From NCBI GenBank assembly GCA_965216025.1, contig CBDCEX010000018.1, forward strand, positions 556,837 through 620,836: DNA of 64,000 bases. Direction: 5' to 3'. This DNA comes from Dehalococcoidia bacterium. Its GTDB lineage: Bacteria > Chloroflexota > Dehalococcoidia > Lucifugimonadales > UBA3495. The number at the start of each line of letters is the position of its first letter. Within the stretch, counting starts at the first letter, position 1. Positions 1 to 43,559 of this stretch are shown one piece after another. The notes beneath the pieces were generated by a model, which saw only the letters and a program-made list of their open reading frames with translations, searched no databases and was not told the origin of the DNA. The position numbers were made by a program, and so were the translations under genes.

Positions 1-312
1 CGTTGCCGGTGCGGTAGTCGGGTCCTCCAGACAGCCCCAGAGACCTCCCGGGGTAAGCCGTGCATCCTTCCCTCGGTCCCCGCCGGATTTACCTGCGCAC
101 CTGTCCGAATAACTATTGGGCCGCCCCGTCCATTGCTGGGTTACCCCACTGCGCCGGCCTTCTATCCGGTTCCTGTTCGTCGAGTCCAAGTTTTGCCATC
201 AGCTTCCTTCAGATTCCACCTCACGATGGACACCCTTGCTTAGGCTAGCGGTTCCGGTCATCACGGCCCGCAGAGGACTTTCACCTCCAAGATGCACAGC
301 ATGCCTGGCACA
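1..312 (-). mobile_element. Group IIC intron A, 5' part only (runs off the window start)
   Basis: Minus strand reads TGTGCCAGGCATG...GGTGAAAGTCC...GCAAGGGTGTCC...GGAATCTGAAGGAAGC...CTTACCCGGGGAGGTCTC, the domain I signature of class IIC introns. It is a diverged copy of about 683-998. Confidence 0.9.
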
Positions 313-36573: not shown

Positions 36574-37524
36574 TTGGGACCAAATGGCATAATCGGACCA
36601 GCCACCAATCTGGATGGCATCCGCTCCTCTGTTTCCGTTCCCTGGAAAAGGCATCTTCCCGAAGGCACCATCAAGCTGGTCCTGCTGTTATGCAGCGTCG
36701 TTTCGATCCTGACCACCGTTGGCATCGTCGCCGTTTTGTTTTACGAGGCGGTCCTTTTCTTCCGAGAGGTCTCGATCTTGGAGTTCATAACCGGTACCAA
36801 GTGGACCCCCCTCTTCGCGTCCCAACACTTCGGCATCTGGCCCCTGTTAACCGGTACCCTGCTCACTACCGTGGGAGCGATGCTGGTTGCCCTGCCCCTG
36901 GGACTGCTCAGCGCCATTTACCTGAGTGAATACGCTCCCGACTTGCTCAGGCAGGTGCTCAAGCCCGTATTGGAGGTTTTAGCCGGTATTCCCACGGTTG
37001 TTTATGGCTTTTTTGCACTGCTTTTTGTCACGCCCCTGCTGCGGGGCATATCGGAGGACATAGCCATTTTCAACGCCCTCAGCCCGGCCATTGTAATGGG
37101 CATCATGATACTGCCCATGGTTTCCAGCCTCAGCGAGGATTCCATGCGAAGTGTACCCCGATCTCTGCGGGAGGCAGCCTATGCGTTGGGCGCCACCAAG
37201 CTGGAAGTAGCAACCCGAGTGGTGGTTCCGGCGGCCCTCTCCGGAATAGTAGCGGCCTTCATCCTAGCCATGTCCCGCGCCATCGGCGAGACGATGATCG
37301 TCGCCATTGCCGCCGGCAGTAACCCGAACTTCACCCTCAATCCGCTGGTACCCATACAGACCATGACCGGGTATATTGTTCAGGTGATTTTGGGGGACGC
37401 ACCCACCGGTTCCCTGGCGCACAAGACCATCTTCGCGGTGGGCAGCAGTCTGTTCCTCATCACGCTGGGTATGAATCTGCTCAGCCAGGCGGTCGTCCGA
37501 AGATTCCGGGAGGCCTACGAGTAG
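36574..37524 (+). CDS. pstC: Phosphate ABC permease
   Basis: Motifs [25 protein letters not shown]. Confidence 0.95.
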
Positions 37525-38408
37525 TGGCGGTAGTAGAGCCCACCGACTTTCGACGCCGCATGGCCCGCCGCAAGTGGCAAGGCCGGGCCTTTCACCTGTT
37601 GTGTCTGGTGGCCATCCTCATTGGTCTCTCCATGCTGGGGGCTCTGCTCTACAACATAATCGAGCAGGGTTGGGACCACATCAATTGGCAATTTCTCAGT
37701 GGTTTTCCTTCCCGGCGCCCGGAAAGCGCGGGGATTTACAGCGCGCTGTTGGGCAGCGTCTATGTAGTTTCCATCGCGGCGGTGACCTCCTTTACTCTGG
37801 GAGTGGGAGCCGCAATCTTCTTGGAAGAGTACACGACCCGGGGTTGGCTCGTGAGAGTGGTTCAAACCAACATATCCAACCTGGCCGGAGTCCCTTCAAT
37901 TGTCTATGGGCTGTTGGGACTGGAGATATTCGCACGCACTCTTGGTCTGGGCAGCAGCGTGCTGGCGGGCGGGCTCACCATGGCTTTACTGGCCCTGCCG
38001 ATAGTAATCATCGCCGCGGAAGAGGCCCTGCGGGCGGTGCCGCCTTCCATCAGGGAAGGAGCGTATGCGCTGGGGGCCACGCGCTGGCAGACTATTTGGC
38101 ACCTGGTGTTGCCTCAGGCTTTCCCGGGAATACTCACCGGCGTTATCCTGGCGGTGAGCCGGGCCATTGGTGAGGCCGCGCCGCTGATAGTGGTAGGAGC
38201 GGTGGCCTTCGTCCCCTTCGCCCCGGACGGCCCGCTCAGCCACTTCACCGTACTGCCGATACAGATATTCAACTGGATATCCCGGCCTCAGGCCGAGTTT
38301 CACGAGGTCGCGGCCGCCGGTATCCTGGTCTTGTTAGCGGTGCTGTTGACCATGAACGCCGTCGCCGTGTTGCTGCGCTTGAAGTTTCAAAAGGGCTCGG
38401 AAGGCTGA
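37524..38408 (+). CDS. pstA: Phosphate ABC permease
   Basis: Motifs NLAGVPSIVYG, RAIGEAAP. Confidence 0.95.
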   Translation: MAVVEPTDFRRRMARRKWQGRAFHLLCLVAILIGLSMLGALLYNIIEQGWDHINWQFLSGFPSRRPESAGIYSALLGSVYVVSIAAVTSFTLGVGAAIFLEEYTTRGWLVRVVQTNISNLAGVPSIVYGLLGLEIFARTLGLGSSVLAGGLTMALLALPIVIIAAEEALRAVPPSIREGAYALGATRWQTIWHLVLPQAFPGILTGVILAVSRAIGEAAPLIVVGAVAFVPFAPDGPLSHFTVLPIQIFNWISRPQAEFHEVAAAGILVLLAVLLTMNAVAVLLRLKFQKGSEG

Positions 38409-38426
38409 AGGCGGAGAGTCGAGGCT

Positions 38427-39200
38427 GTGATAGACGGGACAGCGGTGGTCCGGGCCAACAATCTGAGCGTTTACTACGGCTCCAACCAGGTCATTTCCGA
38501 AGTGGACCTGGAGGTGGCTCACCACAAGATCACGGCGATCATCGGTCCTTCGGGTTCCGGAAAGAGCACCCTGCTGCGCTGTTTCAACCGGATGAATGAC
38601 CTGATTCCCAGCTTCAGAATGTCCGGTCAGGTGCTTTTCGAAGGCCGGGATCTGTACGCGGCGGAGGTGGACCCCACTGAAATTCGCTACCAGGTAGGCA
38701 TGGTGTTTCAGCGGCCCAATCCCTTTCCCAAGTCAATATTCGATAACGTGGCCTTTGGCCCCCGTATCAACGGGTTCCGGGGCGACCTGGAGGCTCTGGT
38801 AGAGCAGTCTCTGCGGAGGGCCGCCCTGTTTGATGAGGTTAAGGACCGGCTCAAGAGTAGCGCTCTGACCCTCTCCGGTGGCCAGCAGCAGCGTCTGTGC
38901 ATCGCCCGGGCCCTGGCTGTAATGCCCCGGGTGATTCTGATGGACGAACCCTGCTCCTCTCTGGACCCAATGGCTACGTTGGCCATAGAGGAGCTGATGC
39001 GGGAGCTGTCGGAAGACTATTCCATTGTCATAGTTACTCACAACATGCAGCAGGCGGCCCGAGTCTCGGATTTCACCGCCTTCCTCATGGGAGATCAAAA
39101 CCGCGTCGCCGAGCTGATTGAGTTCGACGAGACCCGGCAGATCTTCACCAACCCGGCGGATGAGCGGACAGAAGCCTACATCACTGGGCGGTTCGGTTAG
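38427..39200 (+). CDS. pstB: Phosphate ABC ATPase
   Basis: Motifs [22 protein letters not shown]-terminal YITGRFG. Confidence 0.97.
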
Positions 39201-39251
39201 ACCGGCTGCCAAACCGGGCTGTCAAACCGGCTGCGAAATCAGGAGACGAAG

Positions 39252-39917
39252 GTGCTTAGGGCGGATTTTGATCGAAACTTGAAGCTACTGCAGGATGATC
39301 TTATCGAGCTGGGAAACCTGGTGGGACAAGCCATCACCCGAGCCATGGTCGCTTTGATAAATCGGGATTTGGACGCCTCCCAAAGGATTGTGGCGGAAGA
39401 TGACGTCATCGACCAGAAGCGATTCGAGCTGGAGGACCAATGCATTGACTTAATCGCCACGCAGCAACCCATAGCCATAGACCTGCGCACCTTGATGGCC
39501 GTGCTGCACATTTCGGTAGAGCTGGAACGGGTGGGCGACTACGCCGAGGGCATAGCCAAGGTAACCATCCTGATGGGAGATGAGCCCGTATCGCAGCCTC
39601 TGTTCGACTTACCGTTGCTGGCGGAAAAGGCCAGCGATATGCTGGGCCGCAGCCTGGACTCGCTGCTCTTTCGCGACGCCGGCGCGGCGGAGCAGGTGTG
39701 CGAGGACGATGACCAGGTGGATAACCTGTACCAGAAGGTCTACCGGGAATTGCTGACTCACATGACCCAAGATCCCAAGTCCATACGGCGGGCCACGTAT
39801 CTTCTGTGGGTGGCCCATGACCTAGAGCGCATTGCCGACCGGGCCACCAACATCGCCGAGCGGGTCATATTCTTGGTAACGGGCAAACTGCCGGAAGTTA
39901 ATGAGTCAAAACACTGA
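39252..39917 (+). CDS. phoU: Phosphate signalling protein PhoU
   Basis: Motifs QQPIAIDLR, LERVGDYA, LERIADRATNIAE. Confidence 0.96.
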   Translation: MLRADFDRNLKLLQDDLIELGNLVGQAITRAMVALINRDLDASQRIVAEDDVIDQKRFELEDQCIDLIATQQPIAIDLRTLMAVLHISVELERVGDYAEGIAKVTILMGDEPVSQPLFDLPLLAEKASDMLGRSLDSLLFRDAGAAEQVCEDDDQVDNLYQKVYRELLTHMTQDPKSIRRATYLLWVAHDLERIADRATNIAERVIFLVTGKLPEVNESKH

Positions 39918-39962
39918 ATCGGTCCGTCGGCTGGCGAGTCTTCTGAGATGAATTCGTAAGTG

Positions 39963-39991
39963 TTGACATTAAGCTAGCTAGCAGCTAGACT
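39963..39991 (+). promoter_or_regulatory. sigma70 promoter of the leader peptide/sulfite reductase operon
   Basis: TTGACA (39963-39968)-17 nt-TAGACT (39986-39991). Confidence 0.8.
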
Positions 39992-40000
39992 CAAACACAA

Positions 40001-40057
40001 ATGAGTTCGCAGATAAATCTTTTCTGCCGCTGCACCTGTACCTGTCCTCCTACATAG
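40001..40057 (+). CDS. Putative Cys-rich leader peptide MSSQINLFCRCTCTCPPT
   Basis: ATG 9 nt after the -10 box with no SD; four Cys codons in seven positions; lies upstream of a terminator and the sulfite reductase. Confidence 0.75.
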   Translation: MSSQINLFCRCTCTCPPT

Positions 40058-40094
40058 GGGGCGGGTAACTCATTCCCATAGGGAAACCCTGCGC

Positions 40095-40127
40095 CCACCA
40101 ACGATTCAACCGGTTGGTGGTTTTTTT
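40095..40127 (+). terminator. Intrinsic terminator (attenuator) in the sulfite reductase leader
   Basis: CCACCAAC/GTTGGTGG stem followed by T7, 35 nt before the CDS. Confidence 0.85.
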
Positions 40128-40162
40128 GTGGATTTTATTTCGTTCGGGAGCCGGAGGACACC

Positions 40163-42022
40163 TTGACCAGTAATGCTGAAAAAGCCCAGCAGGTAACTTT
40201 AGAAGAGATCCACCAGGAGAGCCTGCAATTATCCCATTCCTCTCCTGGGGTCATCCCCTTCATGGAGGATGAGATAGTCCGGCTGGAGGATGAGTCGGCC
40301 AAATTCCAGGCGGGCGAGCTGGACAATGCCCAGTTCACTCCCTTCCGGCTCAAGCAGGGTGTTTACGGTCAGCGCCAGGCTGACGTCCAGATGATCCGCA
40401 TAAAAATCCCCGGCGGCATGGTTACCCCGGAGGCCATGGAAACCTTTGGAGACATCGCCGAGCATTACGCCCCGTTACACCGAGGCCATATCACCACCCG
40501 GGAAAACGTTCAGTTCCACCACATTCCTTTAGACGAATGCCCCGACGTCCTCCGTATGTTGGGCAAAGTGGGTCTCACTACCCGAGAGGCCTGCGGTAAC
40601 ACGGTGCGCAATGTGGTGGGGTCGCCCTCGGCGGGCGTCTGCGCCGATGAAGTATTCGACCCCACTCCCTATTTGGCCGCCTACGTACGCTTTGGCGTCC
40701 GGCATCCCATAACCCAGGGCTTTCCGCGCAAATTCAAGACCGCCTTCACCGGCTGCGAAAGCCACGACGCGGTCGCCGCTGCGATCCAGGACCTGACCTA
40801 CGTTGCTCAGGTAAAAGATCAAGACGGCGAATTGAAGCGGGGATTCAAAGTGTACGTTGGAGGCGGTACCTCCATCATGCCCCGGCTGGCCAAACCGTTG
40901 TATGAATTCCTGCCGGAGGCCGATTACCTGAGGCTGGCTCTGGCCATCTGGACTGTTTTCAACAACGCCGAGTCTCTGCGCAAGAACCGAATGATGGCTC
41001 GTCTGAAGGTGCTTATCGACCGCATCGGCTTGGACGAATTCCGGGAGTTGGTCGAGACGGAGCTGGCGCAGATCGGACCCATCGACCCCGCGCCCTACAT
41101 GGACCTGCAGGAGCAACAGCGGGAAACACCGCCCGAGTTGAAAGTCCCGGCTCCGGCTACATCTAGCAACGGGCACAACGGGGGCGGCGAGTATCTAAAA
41201 TGGAAAGCCACCAATGTAGTTAAGCAGCGGCAAGAGGGCTACTGCCTGGTTTATGTTAAGCCGGTGCGGGGAGACCTGACCACCGACCAATTCCGCGGCT
41301 TGGCCAAAATCCTGCGTCGCTTCACCGGCGGCCGCGCCGTGACCACTCAGGAACAAAACTTGGCCCTGCGCTTCGTCCCCGAGGAGAGTCTCCACGATTT
41401 ATGGGACGGGCTAAAAGCGCTGGACCTGGCTGAGCCCGGCGCCCAGACCATCACCAACATAGTATCCTGCCCCGGCACCGATAGCTGCAAGCTGGGCATC
41501 ACCTCTTCCATGGGACTGGCCAAGGCAGTAGAGGAGGAGGTGAATTCCTGGGGCGACCTGTTGAATGACCCCGGAGTCCAGAAAATTCGCATCAAGATGA
41601 GCGGCTGCCCCAACGGCTGCGGACTGCACCACATAGCCAATATCGGCTTCCACGGCGCGGCGGTCAAGGGTCCGGAGGGCCAGCAGATACCTTCCTACGA
41701 GCTTTTCCTGGGCGGGAACTATGGGGACAACCAGGTCGAAGATTCCCGAATCGGCAGCCGCATTCCCAAGGTCAAAGTGCCTGCCAAGCTGGTGCCCAGC
41801 GTGTTGCGGGAGATAACGAATTACTACACCAAGGAGCGGCGGGACGAGGGGGAGGGATTCAACCAGTTCTTGGACCGGGTGGGGCTAGAAGAGGTAACCG
41901 AGGTGGCCAGTCAGGCCGCCCAGGTTTCCCAAACCGCGGAGCCCGGCTCGGACCTGTACTTTGACTGGGAACGCACCAACGCCTACGTGCTGGAACGCGG
42001 CGAAGGCGAGTGCGCCGTATAA
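40163..42022 (+). CDS. Siroheme/4Fe-4S sulfite (or nitrite) reductase
   Basis: Motifs QGVYGQRQ, HITTRENVQ, ACGNTVRN, PRKFK, CPGTDSCKLG, SGCPNGC. Confidence 0.92.
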   Translation: MTSNAEKAQQVTLEEIHQESLQLSHSSPGVIPFMEDEIVRLEDESAKFQAGELDNAQFTPFRLKQGVYGQRQADVQMIRIKIPGGMVTPEAMETFGDIAEHYAPLHRGHITTRENVQFHHIPLDECPDVLRMLGKVGLTTREACGNTVRNVVGSPSAGVCADEVFDPTPYLAAYVRFGVRHPITQGFPRKFKTAFTGCESHDAVAAAIQDLTYVAQVKDQDGELKRGFKVYVGGGTSIMPRLAKPLYEFLPEADYLRLALAIWTVFNNAESLRKNRMMARLKVLIDRIGLDEFRELVETELAQIGPIDPAPYMDLQEQQRETPPELKVPAPATSSNGHNGGGEYLKWKATNVVKQRQEGYCLVYVKPVRGDLTTDQFRGLAKILRRFTGGRAVTTQEQNLALRFVPEESLHDLWDGLKALDLAEPGAQTITNIVSCPGTDSCKLGITSSMGLAKAVEEEVNSWGDLLNDPGVQKIRIKMSGCPNGCGLHHIANIGFHGAAVKGPEGQQIPSYELFLGGNYGDNQVEDSRIGSRIPKVKVPAKLVPSVLREITNYYTKERRDEGEGFNQFLDRVGLEEVTEVASQAAQVSQTAEPGSDLYFDWERTNAYVLERGEGECAV

Positions 42023-42025
42023 CAG

Positions 42026-42853
42026 GTGGCCTCGTTAAGCGGCAGGGTAATCGCCTTCCTGGAATCCCGTATGTCCTCCGAAATGGGTTCGCTGGTCCAG
42101 CGACATGGGGGCGTGCCATATCCTGCTCCCGCCATGCAAGAGCTTTATCGGAAGGACAGCGCGGAGGTCCAGCAGCTGGTGGTGGACATCTGCGGGGGTC
42201 GGGTTGACGCCGTGGTGCTGCTCACCGGTGTGGGCACGCAAGCCCTGATCGAGGTCGCCGATGGTCTGGGCCGGAAGGATGAGCTGATCCAGGCCCTGGA
42301 CCGGCTCACAATAATTGCCCGCAGCCCCAAGCCCGCCCGGGTGCTCCGGCGCTACGAGATCCACATTGACGTGATGCCTCCCGAGCCCTACACCTCCCAA
42401 GATTTGATGCAAGCGATAGAAACCCTACAGCTAAAGGGCAAGGACCTGGCTGTGCAGCATTACGGCGGGCCCAACAGCTTTTTGGTCAATAGCTTGAAAG
42501 AACGAGGTGCTCGGGTGAGAGAGGTGACTCTCTACACCTGGGGCCTGCCCGAGGATGACTCACCGGTGCTGCGGATGATTGACGGCCTTGCCGCTGGGGA
42601 AATCGATGCCGTGGCCTTTACCAGTCAGCCGCAGGTCGGCAATTTGGTGACCATCGCCAGCCAGGCCGGTAAAGAACAGTCCTTACGGGATAGCCTGGCC
42701 GGCTCGGTGCTGCTGGCATCGGTGGGACCGGTTTGCAGCCGCAGGCTGAGGGAGGCCGGGTTCGATGTGGACCTGGAGCCAGAGCATCCCCACATGGGAA
42801 GCCTGGTAGTGGCCATTGCCGAGCACTTCGAGGCTATGCCGAGCCGGGACTGA
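42026..42853 (+). CDS. hemD: Uroporphyrinogen-III synthase
   Basis: Motifs LLTGVG, YTW, AVAFTSQPQV, VGPV; cotranscribed with a siroheme enzyme. Confidence 0.85.
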   Translation: MASLSGRVIAFLESRMSSEMGSLVQRHGGVPYPAPAMQELYRKDSAEVQQLVVDICGGRVDAVVLLTGVGTQALIEVADGLGRKDELIQALDRLTIIARSPKPARVLRRYEIHIDVMPPEPYTSQDLMQAIETLQLKGKDLAVQHYGGPNSFLVNSLKERGARVREVTLYTWGLPEDDSPVLRMIDGLAAGEIDAVAFTSQPQVGNLVTIASQAGKEQSLRDSLAGSVLLASVGPVCSRRLREAGFDVDLEPEHPHMGSLVVAIAEHFEAMPSRD

Positions 42854-42910
42854 CTTTGGGGACCTCTTGTCCTTTGCTCTTCATACGAACCACCAGCTTC
42901 CTTTCTCTTT

Positions 42911-43056
42911 TAAAGAGTGGTTAAAAAGTTCCTTGACTTCCGGGTCTAAGGTGTCATCCCGGTTCGGGCTTCGGCTTCCTCTACCCTTGTGGGAGAGGAT
43001 TGAGGTGAGGGGTATCACCCTCATCCCAACCTTCTCCCATCAAGGGAGAAGGGGCT
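42911..43056. repeat. Hairpin repeat family B, about 145 bp
   Basis: Reverse complement of 50065-50210, including the non-palindromic arm. Confidence 0.85.
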
Positions 43057-43154
43057 ATTATCAGGCTACACCAGGATCCGCATTTCTCCATTCCCGTGCG
43101 GGCAATGCGCCAGGCGTTTTCAACACCCTCGGCCAGGACTACCCTGGCTGGCCT

Positions 43155-43559
43155 TCAGTCCTTCAACCACCGCGCCAATTTCGCCCAGGGGGAAGTTGGT
43201 TTGTCCTCAATGGGCCGGTCCCGCCAGTATTTCTCGTGATGTATGAAGCGGGGCCTGACGAAGAACATTAGGTAGGCCACGGCCAGGAGCACCAGGCCGA
43301 CCCAGATTAACGGCCAGAGCCAGAACGCTCCGATAACCAACGACGCCAAACCCAGCAATGCCACTTTGGAGGGGGTTATTTTGGGCCAGCGCCGCGTTGG
43401 GTACGGGTTGGGCTGGACCGCGGATTCAGTAGGATTCATCCCGCGTGGCGCATCATCCACTGGCACTGGTCGCTCCAACTCGCCAACAGGTTTATCCGGG
43501 GCCTGCTGGCCCAATCCCTTCAGTATCTCTTCTATTTCCTCTTGGTACTTCTCCGGCAT
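43155..43559 (-). CDS. Hypothetical two-TM membrane protein
   Basis: GGAGG RBS, start MPEKYQEEIEEIL, hydrophobic hairpin. Confidence 0.75.
   Translation of the reverse strand: MPEKYQEEIEEILKGLGQQAPDKPVGELERPVPVDDAPRGMNPTESAVQPNPYPTRRWPKITPSKVALLGLASLVIGAFWLWPLIWVGLVLLAVAYLMFFVRPRFIHHEKYWRDRPIEDKPTSPWAKLARWLKD

What the first reader, a model, noticed from the sequence alone, without database searches (positions are those of the whole stretch)
39963..40162. Candidate cysteine-sensing leader-peptide attenuator controlling sulfite reductase-hemD
Seen: a TTGACA-17-TAGACT promoter, then an ATG at 40001 with no SD (near-leaderless), an 18-codon ORF with CRCTCTC followed by PPT-stop, and a terminator (40095-40127) in front of the reductase. 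Segment 1 (CCTGTCCTC, 40041-40049) can pair with segment 2 (GGGGGCGGG, 40057-40065). Alternatively segment 2 pairs with ACCC/GCCC (40086-40096) around an inner TTCCC-ATA-GGGAA hairpin, invading the terminator base by 2 nt. Established: this is the trp/his attenuator layout, and Cys-rich leaderless sORFs regulate sulfur genes in mycobacteria. Inference: stalling at Cys codons permits antitermination, so the enzyme is an assimilatory sulfite reductase. I know of no described intrinsic-terminator, alternating-Cys version in this lineage. The ORF is below the track cut-off and would go unannotated.
Basis: partly seen in the sequence, partly recalled or inferred. Interest (0 to 1): 0.88.

Follow-up and report, generated by a model that had tools for sequence, protein, structure and literature searches.

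The report
Cysteine-sensing leader peptide attenuator
A tiny cysteine-rich reading frame and three competing RNA hairpins sit before a sulfite reductase gene in an uncultured Chloroflexota bacterium and most likely switch the gene on when cysteine runs short, an old mechanism found here in a new lineage.

Summary
Window 39963-40127 holds a TTGACA-17-TAGACT promoter, an ATG 9 nt after the -10 box, and an 18-codon ORF (MSSQINLFCRCTCTCPPT). Its stop codon lies inside a hairpin, and an 8-bp terminator with U7 follows.

The element is conserved. All 45 loci whose reductase is at least 58% identical (42 distinct leaders, Dehalococcoidia MAGs) have the same promoter, near-leaderless start, Cys-rich ORF and terminator. 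Cys makes up 151 of 721 leader residues, against 1.0% in long ORFs.

The proposed antiterminator (segment 2 with segment 3) pairs in 91.6% of alignment cells, and 0 of 500 shuffles reach that. In nascent-RNA folding it forms when a ribosome is parked on a Cys codon, but not on the stop codon or on free RNA.

A covariance model finds a second copy in the same genome, before a MoeB/MoeZ-like gene and a cysteine synthase gene. In the family, 40 of 41 genomes have a match and 27 have two.

My verdict is a classical leader-peptide transcription attenuator that reads Cys-tRNA charging and controls two cysteine-synthesis operons. It is a new member of a known kind. Comparable Cys leaders are described in mycobacteria (translational) and predicted before Rhodobacterales cysS (terminator).

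A sister form with the conserved peptide MRxxDDLFHLC deserves follow-up.

The parts
39963..39991 (+). Sigma-70-type promoter: -35 TTGACA (39963-39968), 17-nt spacer, -10 TAGACT (39986-39991)
   Evidence: 10 of 12 matches. The same rule was met in all 45 orthologous loci with reductase identity >=58%. No transcription start site data.
40001..40057 (+). Leader ORF of 18 codons plus stop, MSSQINLFCRCTCTCPPT*. It starts 9 nt after the -10 box, so the mRNA is predicted leaderless or nearly so.
   Evidence: The ORF is in frame from start to stop in 42 of 42 distinct leaders. The N-terminal residues vary while the Cys codons are kept.
40025..40045 (+). Four Cys codons (TGC 40025, TGC 40031, TGT 40037, TGT 40043) alternating with Arg/Thr codons. 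These are the proposed sensor codons.
   Evidence: Cys is 151 of 721 leader residues against 1.0% in long ORFs. TGY triplets by frame 0/1/2 are 151/38/4, with both TGC (54) and TGT (97) used.
40041..40052 (+). Segment 1 (CCTGTCCTCCTA), the 5' arm of the 1:2 hairpin. It overlaps the last Cys codon and the Pro-Pro-Thr codons.
   Evidence: -17.5 kcal/mol. 76.8% of alignment cells are paired.
40055..40065 (+). Stop codon TAG plus segment 2 (GGGGGCGGG). It pairs either with segment 1 or with segment 3.
40073..40085 (+). Small inner hairpin TTCCC-ATA-GGGAA, enclosed by the 2:3 helix
   Evidence: The spacer sequence is not conserved in relatives.
40088..40096 (+). Segment 3 (CCTGCGCCC), the 3' arm of the antiterminator. 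Its last two C are the first two bases of the terminator stem.
   Evidence: Near-invariant block in 42 leaders. 2:3 is paired in 91.6% of cells, 0 of 500 shuffles reach that, and slid controls reach at most 57.8%.
40095..40127 (+). Intrinsic terminator: stem CCACCAAC/GTTGGTGG, 10-nt loop, U7 tract (40121-40127)
   Evidence: -13.0 kcal/mol; -6.8 without the two C taken by segment 3. The homologous helix has 28 cells with compensatory double changes, and 0 of 500 shuffles reach that.
40153..42022 (+). Shine-Dalgarno GGAGGA (40153-40158) and TTG start (40163) of the 619-aa sirohaem-type sulfite/nitrite reductase
   Evidence: Pfam NIR_SIR and NIR_SIR_ferr. The closest solved structure is 1zj8_A, E 9.2e-56. 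No NCBIfam model is over its cut-off.
42026..42853 (+). Uroporphyrinogen-III synthase (HemD), co-oriented 3 nt after the reductase. It probably supplies the sirohaem precursor.
   Evidence: Pfam HEM4. A hemD hit follows the reductase on the same strand in 42 of 110 loci, 38 of them among the 45 loci with reductase identity >=58%.

Best explanation
This is a ribosome-mediated (leader-peptide) transcription attenuator that reads the supply of charged tRNA-Cys. Transcription starts a few bases before the AUG at 40001, and a ribosome loads on the near-leaderless 5' end.

When cysteine is plentiful, the ribosome runs through the four Cys codons to the stop codon at 40055. There its footprint covers segment 2. 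Segment 3 stays free, the 3:4 terminator forms, and RNA polymerase stops at the U7 tract (40121-40127).

When Cys-tRNA is scarce, the ribosome waits on the second to fourth Cys codon and covers segment 1 only. Segment 2 then pairs with segment 3 as soon as segment 3 is made. That removes the base of the terminator stem, and polymerase reads on into the sulfite reductase and hemD genes.

If no ribosome loads, 1:2 and 3:4 both form and transcription stops.

The same device precedes a MoeB/MoeZ-like adenylyltransferase and cysteine synthase operon elsewhere in the genome, so the two operons form a small cysteine regulon.

Shown here: the sequence elements, their conservation, the pairing statistics and the folding behaviour. 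Inferred: the transcription start, translation of the ORF, the response to cysteine and the kinetic order of folding.
For: (1) Anatomy is confirmed at the stated coordinates.

(2) Conservation. All 45 loci with reductase identity >=58% were examined. They give 42 distinct leaders and 3 exact duplicates. All have the promoter, a start codon 5-10 nt after the -10 box, a short ORF ending in or just after the hairpin, and a hairpin with a U tract. For 2 leaders the second ATG had to be taken, and 2 start with GTG.

(3) The coding signal is separate from RNA constraints. Cys is 20.9% of residues against 1.0% in long ORFs. TGY triplets number 151 in frame against 38 and 4 out of frame. Both synonyms are used, and the N-terminal residues are unconserved.

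(4) Helices on alignment A2. Helix 2:3 is paired in 91.6% of cells, 0 of 500 shuffles reach that, and slid controls reach at most 57.8%. The terminator has 28 compensatory cells, again 0 of 500.

(5) Nascent-RNA folding of the 42 leaders. The median 2:3 pairing probability is 0.05 for free RNA, 0.72 with a footprint on the best Cys codon and 0.00 with a footprint on the stop. 38 of 42 reach >=0.4. The window itself gives 0.00; then 0.01, 0.30, 0.70 and 0.70 on the four Cys codons; and 0.00 on the stop.

(6) Window energies. The antiterminator is -20.2 kcal/mol and the terminator -13.0. The terminator falls to -6.8 once its two basal C are taken.

(7) Regulon logic. Covariance model R1 finds exactly one other strong copy in the genome (62 bits). 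It has the ORF MTGIISKLPGACTCPPT and lies before ThiF/MoeB-family and cysKM cysteine synthase genes. In the family 40 of 41 genomes match and 27 have two matches. Of 34 lower-scoring matches fetched, 29 precede ThiF plus PALP genes, 4 precede the reductase and 1 gave no hit.

(8) More distant reductase loci (<58% identity) have a sORF with at least 3 clustered Cys upstream on the sense strand in 18 of 64 cases. On the antisense strand it is 0 of 64.
Against: - There are no experimental data: no TSS, no 3' ends, no ribosome data and no cysteine response.
- Equilibrium folding of the full leader keeps the terminator (mean pair probability about 0.8-1.0) whatever footprint is imposed. The exceptions are 3 of the 42 leaders (L044, L045, L050), each at one Cys codon. 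The model therefore needs kinetic trapping. This also holds for the E. coli trp attenuator as I recall it, but I did not test that here.
- In the window the antiterminator takes only 2 bases of the terminator stem.
- 4 of 42 leaders do not reach 0.4 in the nascent test, and 10 of 42 already show 2:3 at >=0.2 without a ribosome. For the second operon only 19 of 28 parsed leaders switch, using a cruder definition of the segments.
- The 1:2 helix is no better than shuffles in a fixed register (76.8%, 46 of 500 shuffles as high).
- The last Cys and the Pro-Pro-Thr-stop codons are also RNA helix bases, so their conservation does not by itself show coding.
- The related sequences are kin, so the counts overstate independence.
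- The reductase is not assigned to sulfite rather than nitrite by any curated model.
Confidence: 0.8

Rival explanations
1. The element is a metabolite- or protein-binding RNA switch (riboswitch-like) with a terminator as its expression platform. The short ORF is not translated, and the 'Cys codons' are merely conserved helix or ligand-pocket bases.
For: The last Cys, Pro-Pro-Thr and stop codons coincide with helix 1:2. Segments 2 and 3 are nearly invariant in sequence, as in ligand-binding cores. Translation was not shown.
Against: The upstream Cys codons lie outside every helix. They switch freely between TGC and TGT and keep their frame. The ORF is open from a start codon 5-10 nt after the -10 box to the hairpin stop in 42 of 42 leaders, although the N-terminal lengths and sequences differ. 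TGY triplets are 151 in frame against 42 out of frame. No Rfam family matches. There is no conserved multi-helix core beyond simple alternative hairpins.
Confidence: 0.07
2. The ORF encodes a stable small Cys-rich peptide with a job of its own, such as a CxCxCxC metal or iron-sulfur ligand, a redox peptide or a modified-peptide precursor. The hairpins are an ordinary terminator for that tiny gene.
For: CxCxC motifs bind metals in other proteins (my own knowledge). The peptide's C-terminal part is conserved.
Against: Only the Cys positions and the helix-encoded tail are conserved. Residues 2-8 are unrelated between genera. The number of Cys varies from 1 to 6. The same leader type sits before two different cysteine-synthesis operons and nowhere else in the genome. 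Segment 3 is conserved beyond what the terminator needs and matches segment 2, which a plain terminator would not require.
Confidence: 0.04
3. The switch works at another level, or senses something other than Cys-tRNA. Possibilities are control of translation of the reductase, Rho-dependent termination, or a nascent-peptide arrest that responds to a small molecule. The intrinsic terminator would then be secondary.
For: The mycobacterial Cys leaders act by freeing a sequestered ribosome-binding site, not by a terminator (10.1101/834739, abstract and Discussion read). At equilibrium the terminator is not displaced in most relatives. A sister group of leaders keeps a whole peptide, MRxxDDLFHLC, under purifying selection.
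Against: The reductase's Shine-Dalgarno sequence (40153-40158) lies 26 nt beyond the U tract and is not paired with the leader in the minimum-energy fold. A strong hairpin with a U tract is present in 42 of 42 leaders, with compensatory changes. The three-state behaviour in nascent RNA fits termination control.
Confidence: 0.07

Closest known systems
Classical leader-peptide transcription attenuators of amino-acid operons (E. coli trp, his, leu, thr, pheA, ilv)
   Same: Both have a short ORF rich in codons for the pathway's end product. Both have three mutually exclusive helices (1:2, 2:3, 3:4), an intrinsic terminator before the structural genes, and a ribosome whose position decides the fold (the E. 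coli features are from my own knowledge).
   Different: The amino acid sensed is cysteine. The mRNA is predicted leaderless rather than Shine-Dalgarno-led. The sensor codons alternate with other codons instead of running in tandem. The stop codon sits inside the 1:2 hairpin loop region. The lineage is Chloroflexota. There is no sequence relationship (no Rfam match).
Polycysteine leaderless short ORFs of mycobacteria (Canestrari et al. 2020, 10.1101/834739; Cys leader peptides 'without obvious terminators' in Actinobacteria, Seliverstov et al. 2005, PMC1262725)
   Same: Both are leaderless, unannotated Cys-rich ORFs before cysteine and sulfur genes. Several operons in one genome share the device (their 'ribulon'). 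Ribosome stalling at Cys codons is the signal (abstract and Discussion read; passages read).
   Different: In mycobacteria the studied case frees a sequestered ribosome-binding site (translational), no conserved terminator is found, and the Cys codons are consecutive. Here an intrinsic terminator with compensatory changes is universal, the Shine-Dalgarno sequence is not sequestered by the leader, and the Cys codons alternate.
uORFC-8-2 motif upstream of cysS in Rhodobacterales (Brewer et al. 2021, PMC8632094)
   Same: It is a predicted ribosome-mediated attenuator with conserved Cys codons in an upstream ORF and a U-tract terminator (passages read).
   Different: It controls the tRNA synthetase gene, not biosynthesis. 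It has two tandem Cys codons at positions 14-15. It occurs in alpha-proteobacteria. I had no model of it to compare. It was also only predicted, not tested.

Membership tests
Leader-peptide (ribosome-mediated) transcription attenuators, trp/his type | Short ORF at the 5' end of the transcript, kept open and in frame among relatives | tested here: met
   42 of 42 distinct leaders have an ORF of 15-24 codons from a start 5-10 nt after the -10 box to a stop in or just past the hairpin. Translation itself was not shown.
Leader-peptide (ribosome-mediated) transcription attenuators, trp/his type | Enrichment of codons for the end-product amino acid | tested here: met
   Cys is 151 of 721 residues (20.9%) against 1.0% in ORFs >=300 aa on contig C18. 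TGY triplets by frame are 151/38/4.
Leader-peptide (ribosome-mediated) transcription attenuators, trp/his type | Intrinsic terminator between the leader ORF and the first structural gene | tested here: met
   Hairpin plus U tract in 42 of 42 leaders. 28 compensatory cells, 0 of 500 shuffles as high. The window hairpin is -13.0 kcal/mol with U7.
Leader-peptide (ribosome-mediated) transcription attenuators, trp/his type | Antiterminator that overlaps the terminator and is itself blocked by a helix that a stalled ribosome would melt | tested here: met
   2:3 is paired in 91.6% of cells. In nascent-RNA folding the medians are 0.05 free, 0.72 on a Cys codon and 0.00 on the stop, and 38 of 42 leaders switch. 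Caveat: at equilibrium the terminator wins.
Leader-peptide (ribosome-mediated) transcription attenuators, trp/his type | Controlled genes make the sensed amino acid | tested here: met
   Sulfite/nitrite reductase plus HemD. The second copy lies before a MoeB/MoeZ-like gene and a cysKM cysteine synthase scoring 358 bits against a cut-off of 344.
Leader-peptide (ribosome-mediated) transcription attenuators, trp/his type | Read-through rises when the charged tRNA falls | not testable with these tools
   Only RNA-library contigs were available. They cover the leader and bridge the terminator, but they cannot show ends or levels.
Mycobacterial polycysteine leaderless sORF attenuators | At least two consecutive Cys codons | tested here: not met
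   The window has C-R-C-T-C-T-C. Some relatives do have CC.
Mycobacterial polycysteine leaderless sORF attenuators | [quoted passage not shown] | tested here: not met
   The Shine-Dalgarno sequence at 40153-40158 is not paired with the leader in the minimum-energy fold. A terminator is present instead.
Mycobacterial polycysteine leaderless sORF attenuators | Leaderless start (5' AUG/GUG) | tested here: inconclusive
   Predicted from the 5-10 nt between the -10 box and the start codon. No 5'-end data.
uORFC-8-2 motif (Rhodobacterales cysS) | Located before cysS, with two tandem Cys codons near position 14-15 | tested here: not met
   The downstream genes are the reductase with hemD, or the moeB-like gene with cysteine synthase. 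The Cys codons alternate.
Any Rfam 15 family | Covariance-model match | tested here: not met
   Window 39000-41000 was searched at E <= 10. The only match is a chance-level one (Xist_exon4, E 7.3) elsewhere in the stretch.
Assimilatory ferredoxin-type sulfite reductase (Sir / mycobacterial NirA-SirA group) | Two NIR_SIR half-domains and a score over a curated family cut-off | tested here: inconclusive
   The Pfam domains are present and the best solved relative is 1zj8_A. The best NCBIfam score is 233 bits against a cut-off of 523 for the NirA family. Sulfite as substrate is inferred from the Cys leader and the shared regulon.

The most novel reading that the evidence does not exclude
The attenuator family may contain a true sensory arrest peptide. 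In a sister group of leaders, the run of Cys codons is replaced by the conserved peptide MRxxDDLFHLC with one or two Cys codons. This group precedes the same reductase in six relatives. In metagenome contigs it precedes APS/PAPS reductase, a TauE-family gene and moeB-like genes. If the nascent DDLFHL chain acts inside the ribosome tunnel, it could make decoding of the single Cys codon, or termination, depend on cysteine or a related sulfur metabolite, as TnaC does for tryptophan. The window's own element would then be the codon-counting ancestor or sibling of a new class of metabolite-sensing nascent peptides.
Probability: 0.2. Interest if true: 0.8.

Novelty: new member of a known kind. Interest (0 to 1): 0.55.

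Why it matters
The element gives uncultured Dehalococcoidia a readable regulatory signal. These bacteria are abundant in oceans, and the RNA runs that hold this stretch include runs labelled sponge metagenome. Wherever the leader occurs, the genes behind it can be assigned to cysteine and sulfur assimilation. That helps decide the substrate of an otherwise ambiguous sulfite/nitrite reductase.

It extends classical trp-type attenuation to cysteine biosynthesis and to Chloroflexota, on a leaderless mRNA. It also shows a two-operon regulon run by the ribosome rather than by a transcription factor, in parallel to the mycobacterial 'ribulon' but acting through termination.

The element is compact (about 130 nt) and could serve as a cysteine-responsive part. 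The conserved-peptide sister form offers a testable candidate for a new arrest peptide.

Tried and rejected
- Rfam at a permissive threshold gave nothing for the leader.
- The consensus terminator scan found none, because the loop is 10 nt. Folding settled the question.
- Equilibrium folding of the full leader with ribosome footprints did not displace the terminator. I therefore replaced it with folding of the nascent RNA cut before the 3' arm. One search defined segment 2 from the stop codon, which fails for leaders whose ORF runs past segment 2. One search used alignment columns instead.
- I looked for the leader before sat-aprBA in the same genome. None was seen by eye and the model has no hit there. 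The third model hit (20 bits, E 0.44) looks like a plain terminator.
- PAPS reductase: only a weak 27-bit match in this genome.
- Model R1 found nothing outside the family: 1 of 151 genomes in a class-wide sample, and that one is the window's own genome. The model is sequence-heavy, and stricter filters were applied.
- The MRxxDDLFHLC DNA pattern was not found in 401 genomes sampled across the phylum, nor in the window's genome.
- RNA evidence. Four RNA-library runs from two studies hold contigs over the whole stretch, and two contigs (both from one study) bridge the terminator into the reductase. Contigs cannot show starts, ends or levels, and DNA carry-over cannot be excluded, so I use this only as 'not contradicted'. 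The depth differences between phoU and the reductase are not interpretable.
- Cyanobacteria were my first guess for the lineage. The record titles refuted that.
- Literature. None returned a paper describing this Chloroflexota leader, and 'DDLFHL' occurs in no held paper. The library lacks most subscription journals. Supplements were closed, so supplementary motif lists of PMC8632094 and tables of 10.1101/834739 could hold related entries that I could not see.
Full report
**What is in the window.**

- The promoter is TTGACA (39963-39968), a 17-nt spacer and TAGACT (39986-39991).
- An ATG at 40001 lies 9 nt after the -10 box, which leaves no room for a Shine-Dalgarno sequence.
- The ORF has 18 codons, MSSQINLFCRCTCTCPPT, with TAG at 40055-40057.
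- Segment 1 is CCTGTCCTCCTA (40041-40052) and segment 2 is GGGGGCGGG (40057-40065).
- A small hairpin lies at 40073-40085 and segment 3, CCTGCGCCC, at 40088-40096.
- The terminator is CCACCAAC / 10-nt loop / GTTGGTGG (40095-40120), followed by seven T (40121-40127).

The promoter scan reports this one site with 10 of 12 matches, where shuffles give 0.7 +/- 0.9, so alone it proves nothing. The same scan lists no terminator because it allows only loops of 3-8 nt.

Folding gives these values:

| Element | Energy (kcal/mol) | Shuffles folding as well |
|---|---|---|
| Whole leader | -48.9 (z = -3.27) | 1 of 200 |
| 1:2 hairpin | -17.5 | 0 of 200 |
| 2:3 helix with inner hairpin | -20.2 | 2 of 200 |
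| Terminator | -13.0 | 3 of 200 |
| Terminator without the two basal C that segment 3 shares | -6.8 | 42 of 200 |

**Surroundings.**

Upstream lie two ABC-transporter permease genes, an ABC ATPase gene and phoU (39252-39917), which look like pstC, pstA and pstB.

Downstream, after GGAGGA (40153-40158) and a TTG start at 40163, comes a 619-aa protein with two NIR_SIR / NIR_SIR_ferr halves. A 275-aa HemD follows 3 nt later.
- No curated NCBIfam model passes its cut-off. The best is 'NirA family', 233 bits against a cut-off of 523.
- The closest solved structure is 1zj8_A, deposited as a probable ferredoxin-dependent nitrite reductase NirA (E 9.2e-56). From memory, that Mycobacterium tuberculosis enzyme was shown to reduce sulfite.

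Rfam gives nothing for the leader.

**Lineage.**

Record titles of the 80 best related loci name Dehalococcoidia, Chloroflexota and SAR202 MAGs. A few of the more distant ones name Solirubrobacterales and one Nitrospinota. Runs labelled sponge metagenome hold the stretch.

**Conservation.**

I collected the reductase locus from 30 relatives (34 of 41 genomes had a match) and from 80 named contigs.
- 45 loci have a reductase at least 58% identical. They give 42 distinct leaders and 3 exact duplicates. All of them pass one mechanical rule: TTGAC[AT]-16..19-TAnnnT, a start codon 5-10 nt later, a short ORF, and a hairpin of -12 kcal/mol or better followed by a T-rich tract.
- For two leaders the second ATG had to be chosen, and two start with GTG.
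- The peptides are 15-24 residues long. Their first halves are unrelated between genera. Their second halves read CxCxC(P/L)(P/L)T-stop or variants.
- Cys accounts for 151 of 721 residues, against 1.0% in ORFs of at least 300 aa on contig C18.
- TGY triplets fall 151 / 38 / 4 in frames 0 / 1 / 2. Both TGC (54) and TGT (97) are used.
- Cys sits almost only at even distances from the stop (-4, -6, -8, -10 ...).
- In the whole 5.25-Mb genome, only this ORF among 56,708 short ATG ORFs combines a Cys cluster with a promoter placed for a leaderless start.

**The three helices.**

These were counted on the 42-row alignment A2.
- The terminator helix is paired in 81.4% of cells, with 28 compensatory double changes. 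0 of 500 shuffles reach that, and slid registers reach at most 48.7%.
- The antiterminator (columns 104-113 with 159-167) is paired in 91.6% of cells. 0 of 500 shuffles reach that, and slid registers reach at most 57.8%. It has 6 double-change cells, a count reached by 5 of 500 shuffles.
- The block CCTGCGCCC is conserved even where its first four bases are not part of the terminator. The need to match segment 2 (CAGG...) explains this.
- Helix 1:2 in a fixed register is paired in 76.8% of cells, no better than shuffles (46 of 500). Some subgroups use another register.

**Does a ribosome switch the fold?**

At equilibrium on the full leader the terminator keeps a mean pair probability of about 0.8-1.0 whatever is masked. 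The only clear drops are in L044, L045 and L050. In the window the measure is insensitive, because 2:3 takes only two terminator pairs. So thermodynamics alone does not give antitermination.

I then folded the nascent RNA, cut before the terminator's 3' arm, with a footprint from -15 to +13 around the A-site codon. The result is a clean three-state pattern.
- The median probability that segment 3 is paired with segment 2 is 0.05 without a ribosome, 0.72 with the ribosome on the best Cys codon, and 0.00 on the stop codon.
- 38 of 42 leaders reach at least 0.4 on a Cys codon, and 0 of 42 reach 0.2 on the stop.
- 10 of 42 already show at least 0.2 without a ribosome.
- 4 of 42 (L006, L007, L039, L048) stay below 0.4.
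- For the window the values are 0.00; then 0.01, 0.30, 0.70 and 0.70 for the four Cys codons; then 0.00.

This is the behaviour expected of a trp-type attenuator that works kinetically.

**A second operon.**

Covariance model R1, built from the 42 leaders, finds three matches in the window's genome at E <= 1.
- This leader scores 90.7 bits.
- A second copy at contig C18:878297-878416 scores 62.2 bits.
- A 20-bit match looks like a bare terminator.

The second copy has its own TTGACA-17-TAGACT promoter and the ORF MTGIISKLPGACTCPPT. It also has the stop-codon hairpin, GCCTGCGCCC and a terminator. It precedes two genes:
- A 280-aa ThiF-family adenylyltransferase. Its best NCBIfam hits are MoeB and MoeZ, and it passes the cut-off of the MoeB subfamily model NF004281.
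- A 316-aa cysteine synthase (TIGR01136 cysKM, 358 bits against a cut-off of 344).

In a sample of the family, 40 of 41 genomes have a match and 27 have two. Of the 34 lower-scoring matches I fetched, 29 precede ThiF plus PALP genes, 4 precede the reductase and 1 gave no hit. Of the 30 second-operon leaders (these 29 plus the window genome's own copy), 28 could be parsed. Of those, 19 switch in the nascent-RNA test under a cruder definition of the segments.

Two operons with one purpose, making cysteine, share one leader whose only conserved coding feature is Cys codons. This is the strongest argument that cysteine is the signal and that the reductase is assimilatory.

hemD follows the reductase in 42 of 110 loci. 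The genome's sat-aprBA cluster has no such leader.

**Range.**

Outside the family, model R1 finds nothing in a class-wide sample; the only match among 151 genomes is the window's own. Even so, more distant reductase loci (<58% identity) carry an upstream ORF with at least three clustered Cys on the sense strand in 18 of 64 cases, against 0 of 64 on the antisense strand. For the near loci the figures are 33 of 42 against 2 of 42. The idea is therefore older than this particular sequence family.

**RNA data.**

Only assembled contigs of RNA libraries were available.
- Four runs from two studies cover all bins of 39200-42900.
- Two contigs from one study (40045-40267 and 40072-40379) bridge the terminator into the reductase.

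This does not contradict read-through. It shows neither ends nor levels, and DNA carry-over cannot be excluded.

**Comparison with what is known.**
- Seliverstov et al. [quoted passage not shown]
- Canestrari et al. 2020 (10.1101/834739, abstract and Discussion read) showed that such leaderless polycysteine ORFs in Mycobacterium smegmatis relieve a structure that hides the next gene's ribosome-binding site. They named the co-regulated set a 'ribulon'.
- Brewer et al. 2021 (PMC8632094, passages read) predicted a terminator-type attenuator with two tandem Cys codons before cysS in Rhodobacterales.

The present element works like the classical attenuators. It shares leaderlessness and the regulon logic with the mycobacterial case. 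It differs from that case in using an intrinsic terminator and alternating Cys codons, and it has no sequence relation to either.

None of my nine searches returned a description of it. Supplements were closed and most subscription journals are not held.

**A sister form worth a look.**

Six of the 42 leaders (L006, L008, L020, L047, L049, L050) have lost the Cys run and read MR(F/Y/M)(E/G)DDLFHLC(T/M).. with a single Cys six codons before the stop.
- Across their first 11 codons, pairwise codon differences are 77 synonymous against 14 non-synonymous. The peptide, not the RNA, is under selection.
- A degenerate DNA pattern for ATG-Arg-xx-DDLFHLC found 20 metagenome stretches. 19 of them are ORFs of 15-16 codons, most with the same kind of promoter, stop-codon hairpin and CTGCGCC-type terminator, judged by eye.
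- The first recognisable gene downstream is the reductase in 3, the ThiF-family gene in 2, APS/PAPS reductase in 6 and a TauE/SafE-family gene in 1.
- The other 8 are unresolved. In 3 the contig ends, and in 5 the first ORF has no family. One of those 5 (L187) lacks the promoter and terminator context.
- The motif occurs in no held paper, in none of 401 genomes sampled across the phylum and not in the window's genome.

It may be an arrest or tuning peptide that makes one Cys codon suffice. This is speculation.

**Verdict.**

The element is a well-conserved, previously undescribed family of Cys-codon leader-peptide transcription attenuators in Dehalococcoidia, controlling two cysteine-synthesis operons. 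The mechanism is a known kind. The response to cysteine remains to be shown.

Noticed in passing
L006, L008, L020, L047, L049, L050 (leaders before the orthologous reductase); metagenome loci L181-L200: A sister leader type carries the conserved peptide MRxxDDLFHLC and only one or two Cys codons. Pairwise codon differences are 77 synonymous against 14 non-synonymous. In metagenome contigs it precedes the reductase, APS/PAPS reductase, TauE-family and ThiF-family genes. It may be an arrest peptide.
   Followed up: partly
Own genome outside the window: G000:C18:878297-878416 (L114 1440-1620; L116): A second copy of the attenuator (ORF MTGIISKLPGACTCPPT) lies before a MoeB/MoeZ-like adenylyltransferase and a cysKM cysteine synthase, just upstream of the nusA-infB cluster.
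   Followed up: yes
42 leaders of alignment A2: Cys codons keep a strict two-codon period relative to the stop (-4, -6, -8, -10 ...), and odd positions are rare. I have no explanation for alternating rather than tandem codons.
   Followed up: no
L018, L032, L040-L046 (leaders before the orthologous reductase): In one subgroup the ORF (for example MHSTCKSICICTCTCPPKSGAG) reads through the 1:2 hairpin and stops only after segment 2. The terminating ribosome then sits even more squarely on segment 2.
   Followed up: partly
window 40075, 40118, 40120: Contigs of RNA libraries carry strain variants. A G inserted behind 40118 (3 of 4 runs) lengthens the terminator stem by one C-G pair and raises the overlap with segment 3 to 3 nt. 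One run has a T inserted behind 40120. Two runs have C>T at 40075 in the inner hairpin.
   Followed up: no
window 40611-41465: One contig in each of two RNA runs of one study joins 40611 to 41465, skipping 853 nt inside the reductase gene, with only 23 letters on the shorter side. This is probably an assembly join between the gene's two homologous halves or with another organism.
   Followed up: no
Own genome, L117 (G000:C16:420000-430000): An ATP sulfurylase gene is followed by aprB and aprA (dissimilatory-type APS reductase), with no Cys leader upstream. Only a weak PAPS-reductase match exists in the genome. The route from sulfate to sulfite here may therefore run through Sat-AprBA, or these genes may serve sulfite oxidation.
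   Followed up: partly
window 42816-43271 (+): A 151-aa ORF overlaps the end of hemD by 38 nt and has no Pfam or NCBIfam match. I cannot say whether it is a real third gene of the operon.
   Followed up: no
window 36574-39917 (+): Two ABC-transporter permease genes, an ABC ATPase gene and phoU (likely pstC-pstA-pstB-phoU) end 45 nt before the attenuator's -35 box. RNA-library contigs run from phoU across the promoter into the leader, so some read-in from upstream cannot be excluded.
   Followed up: no
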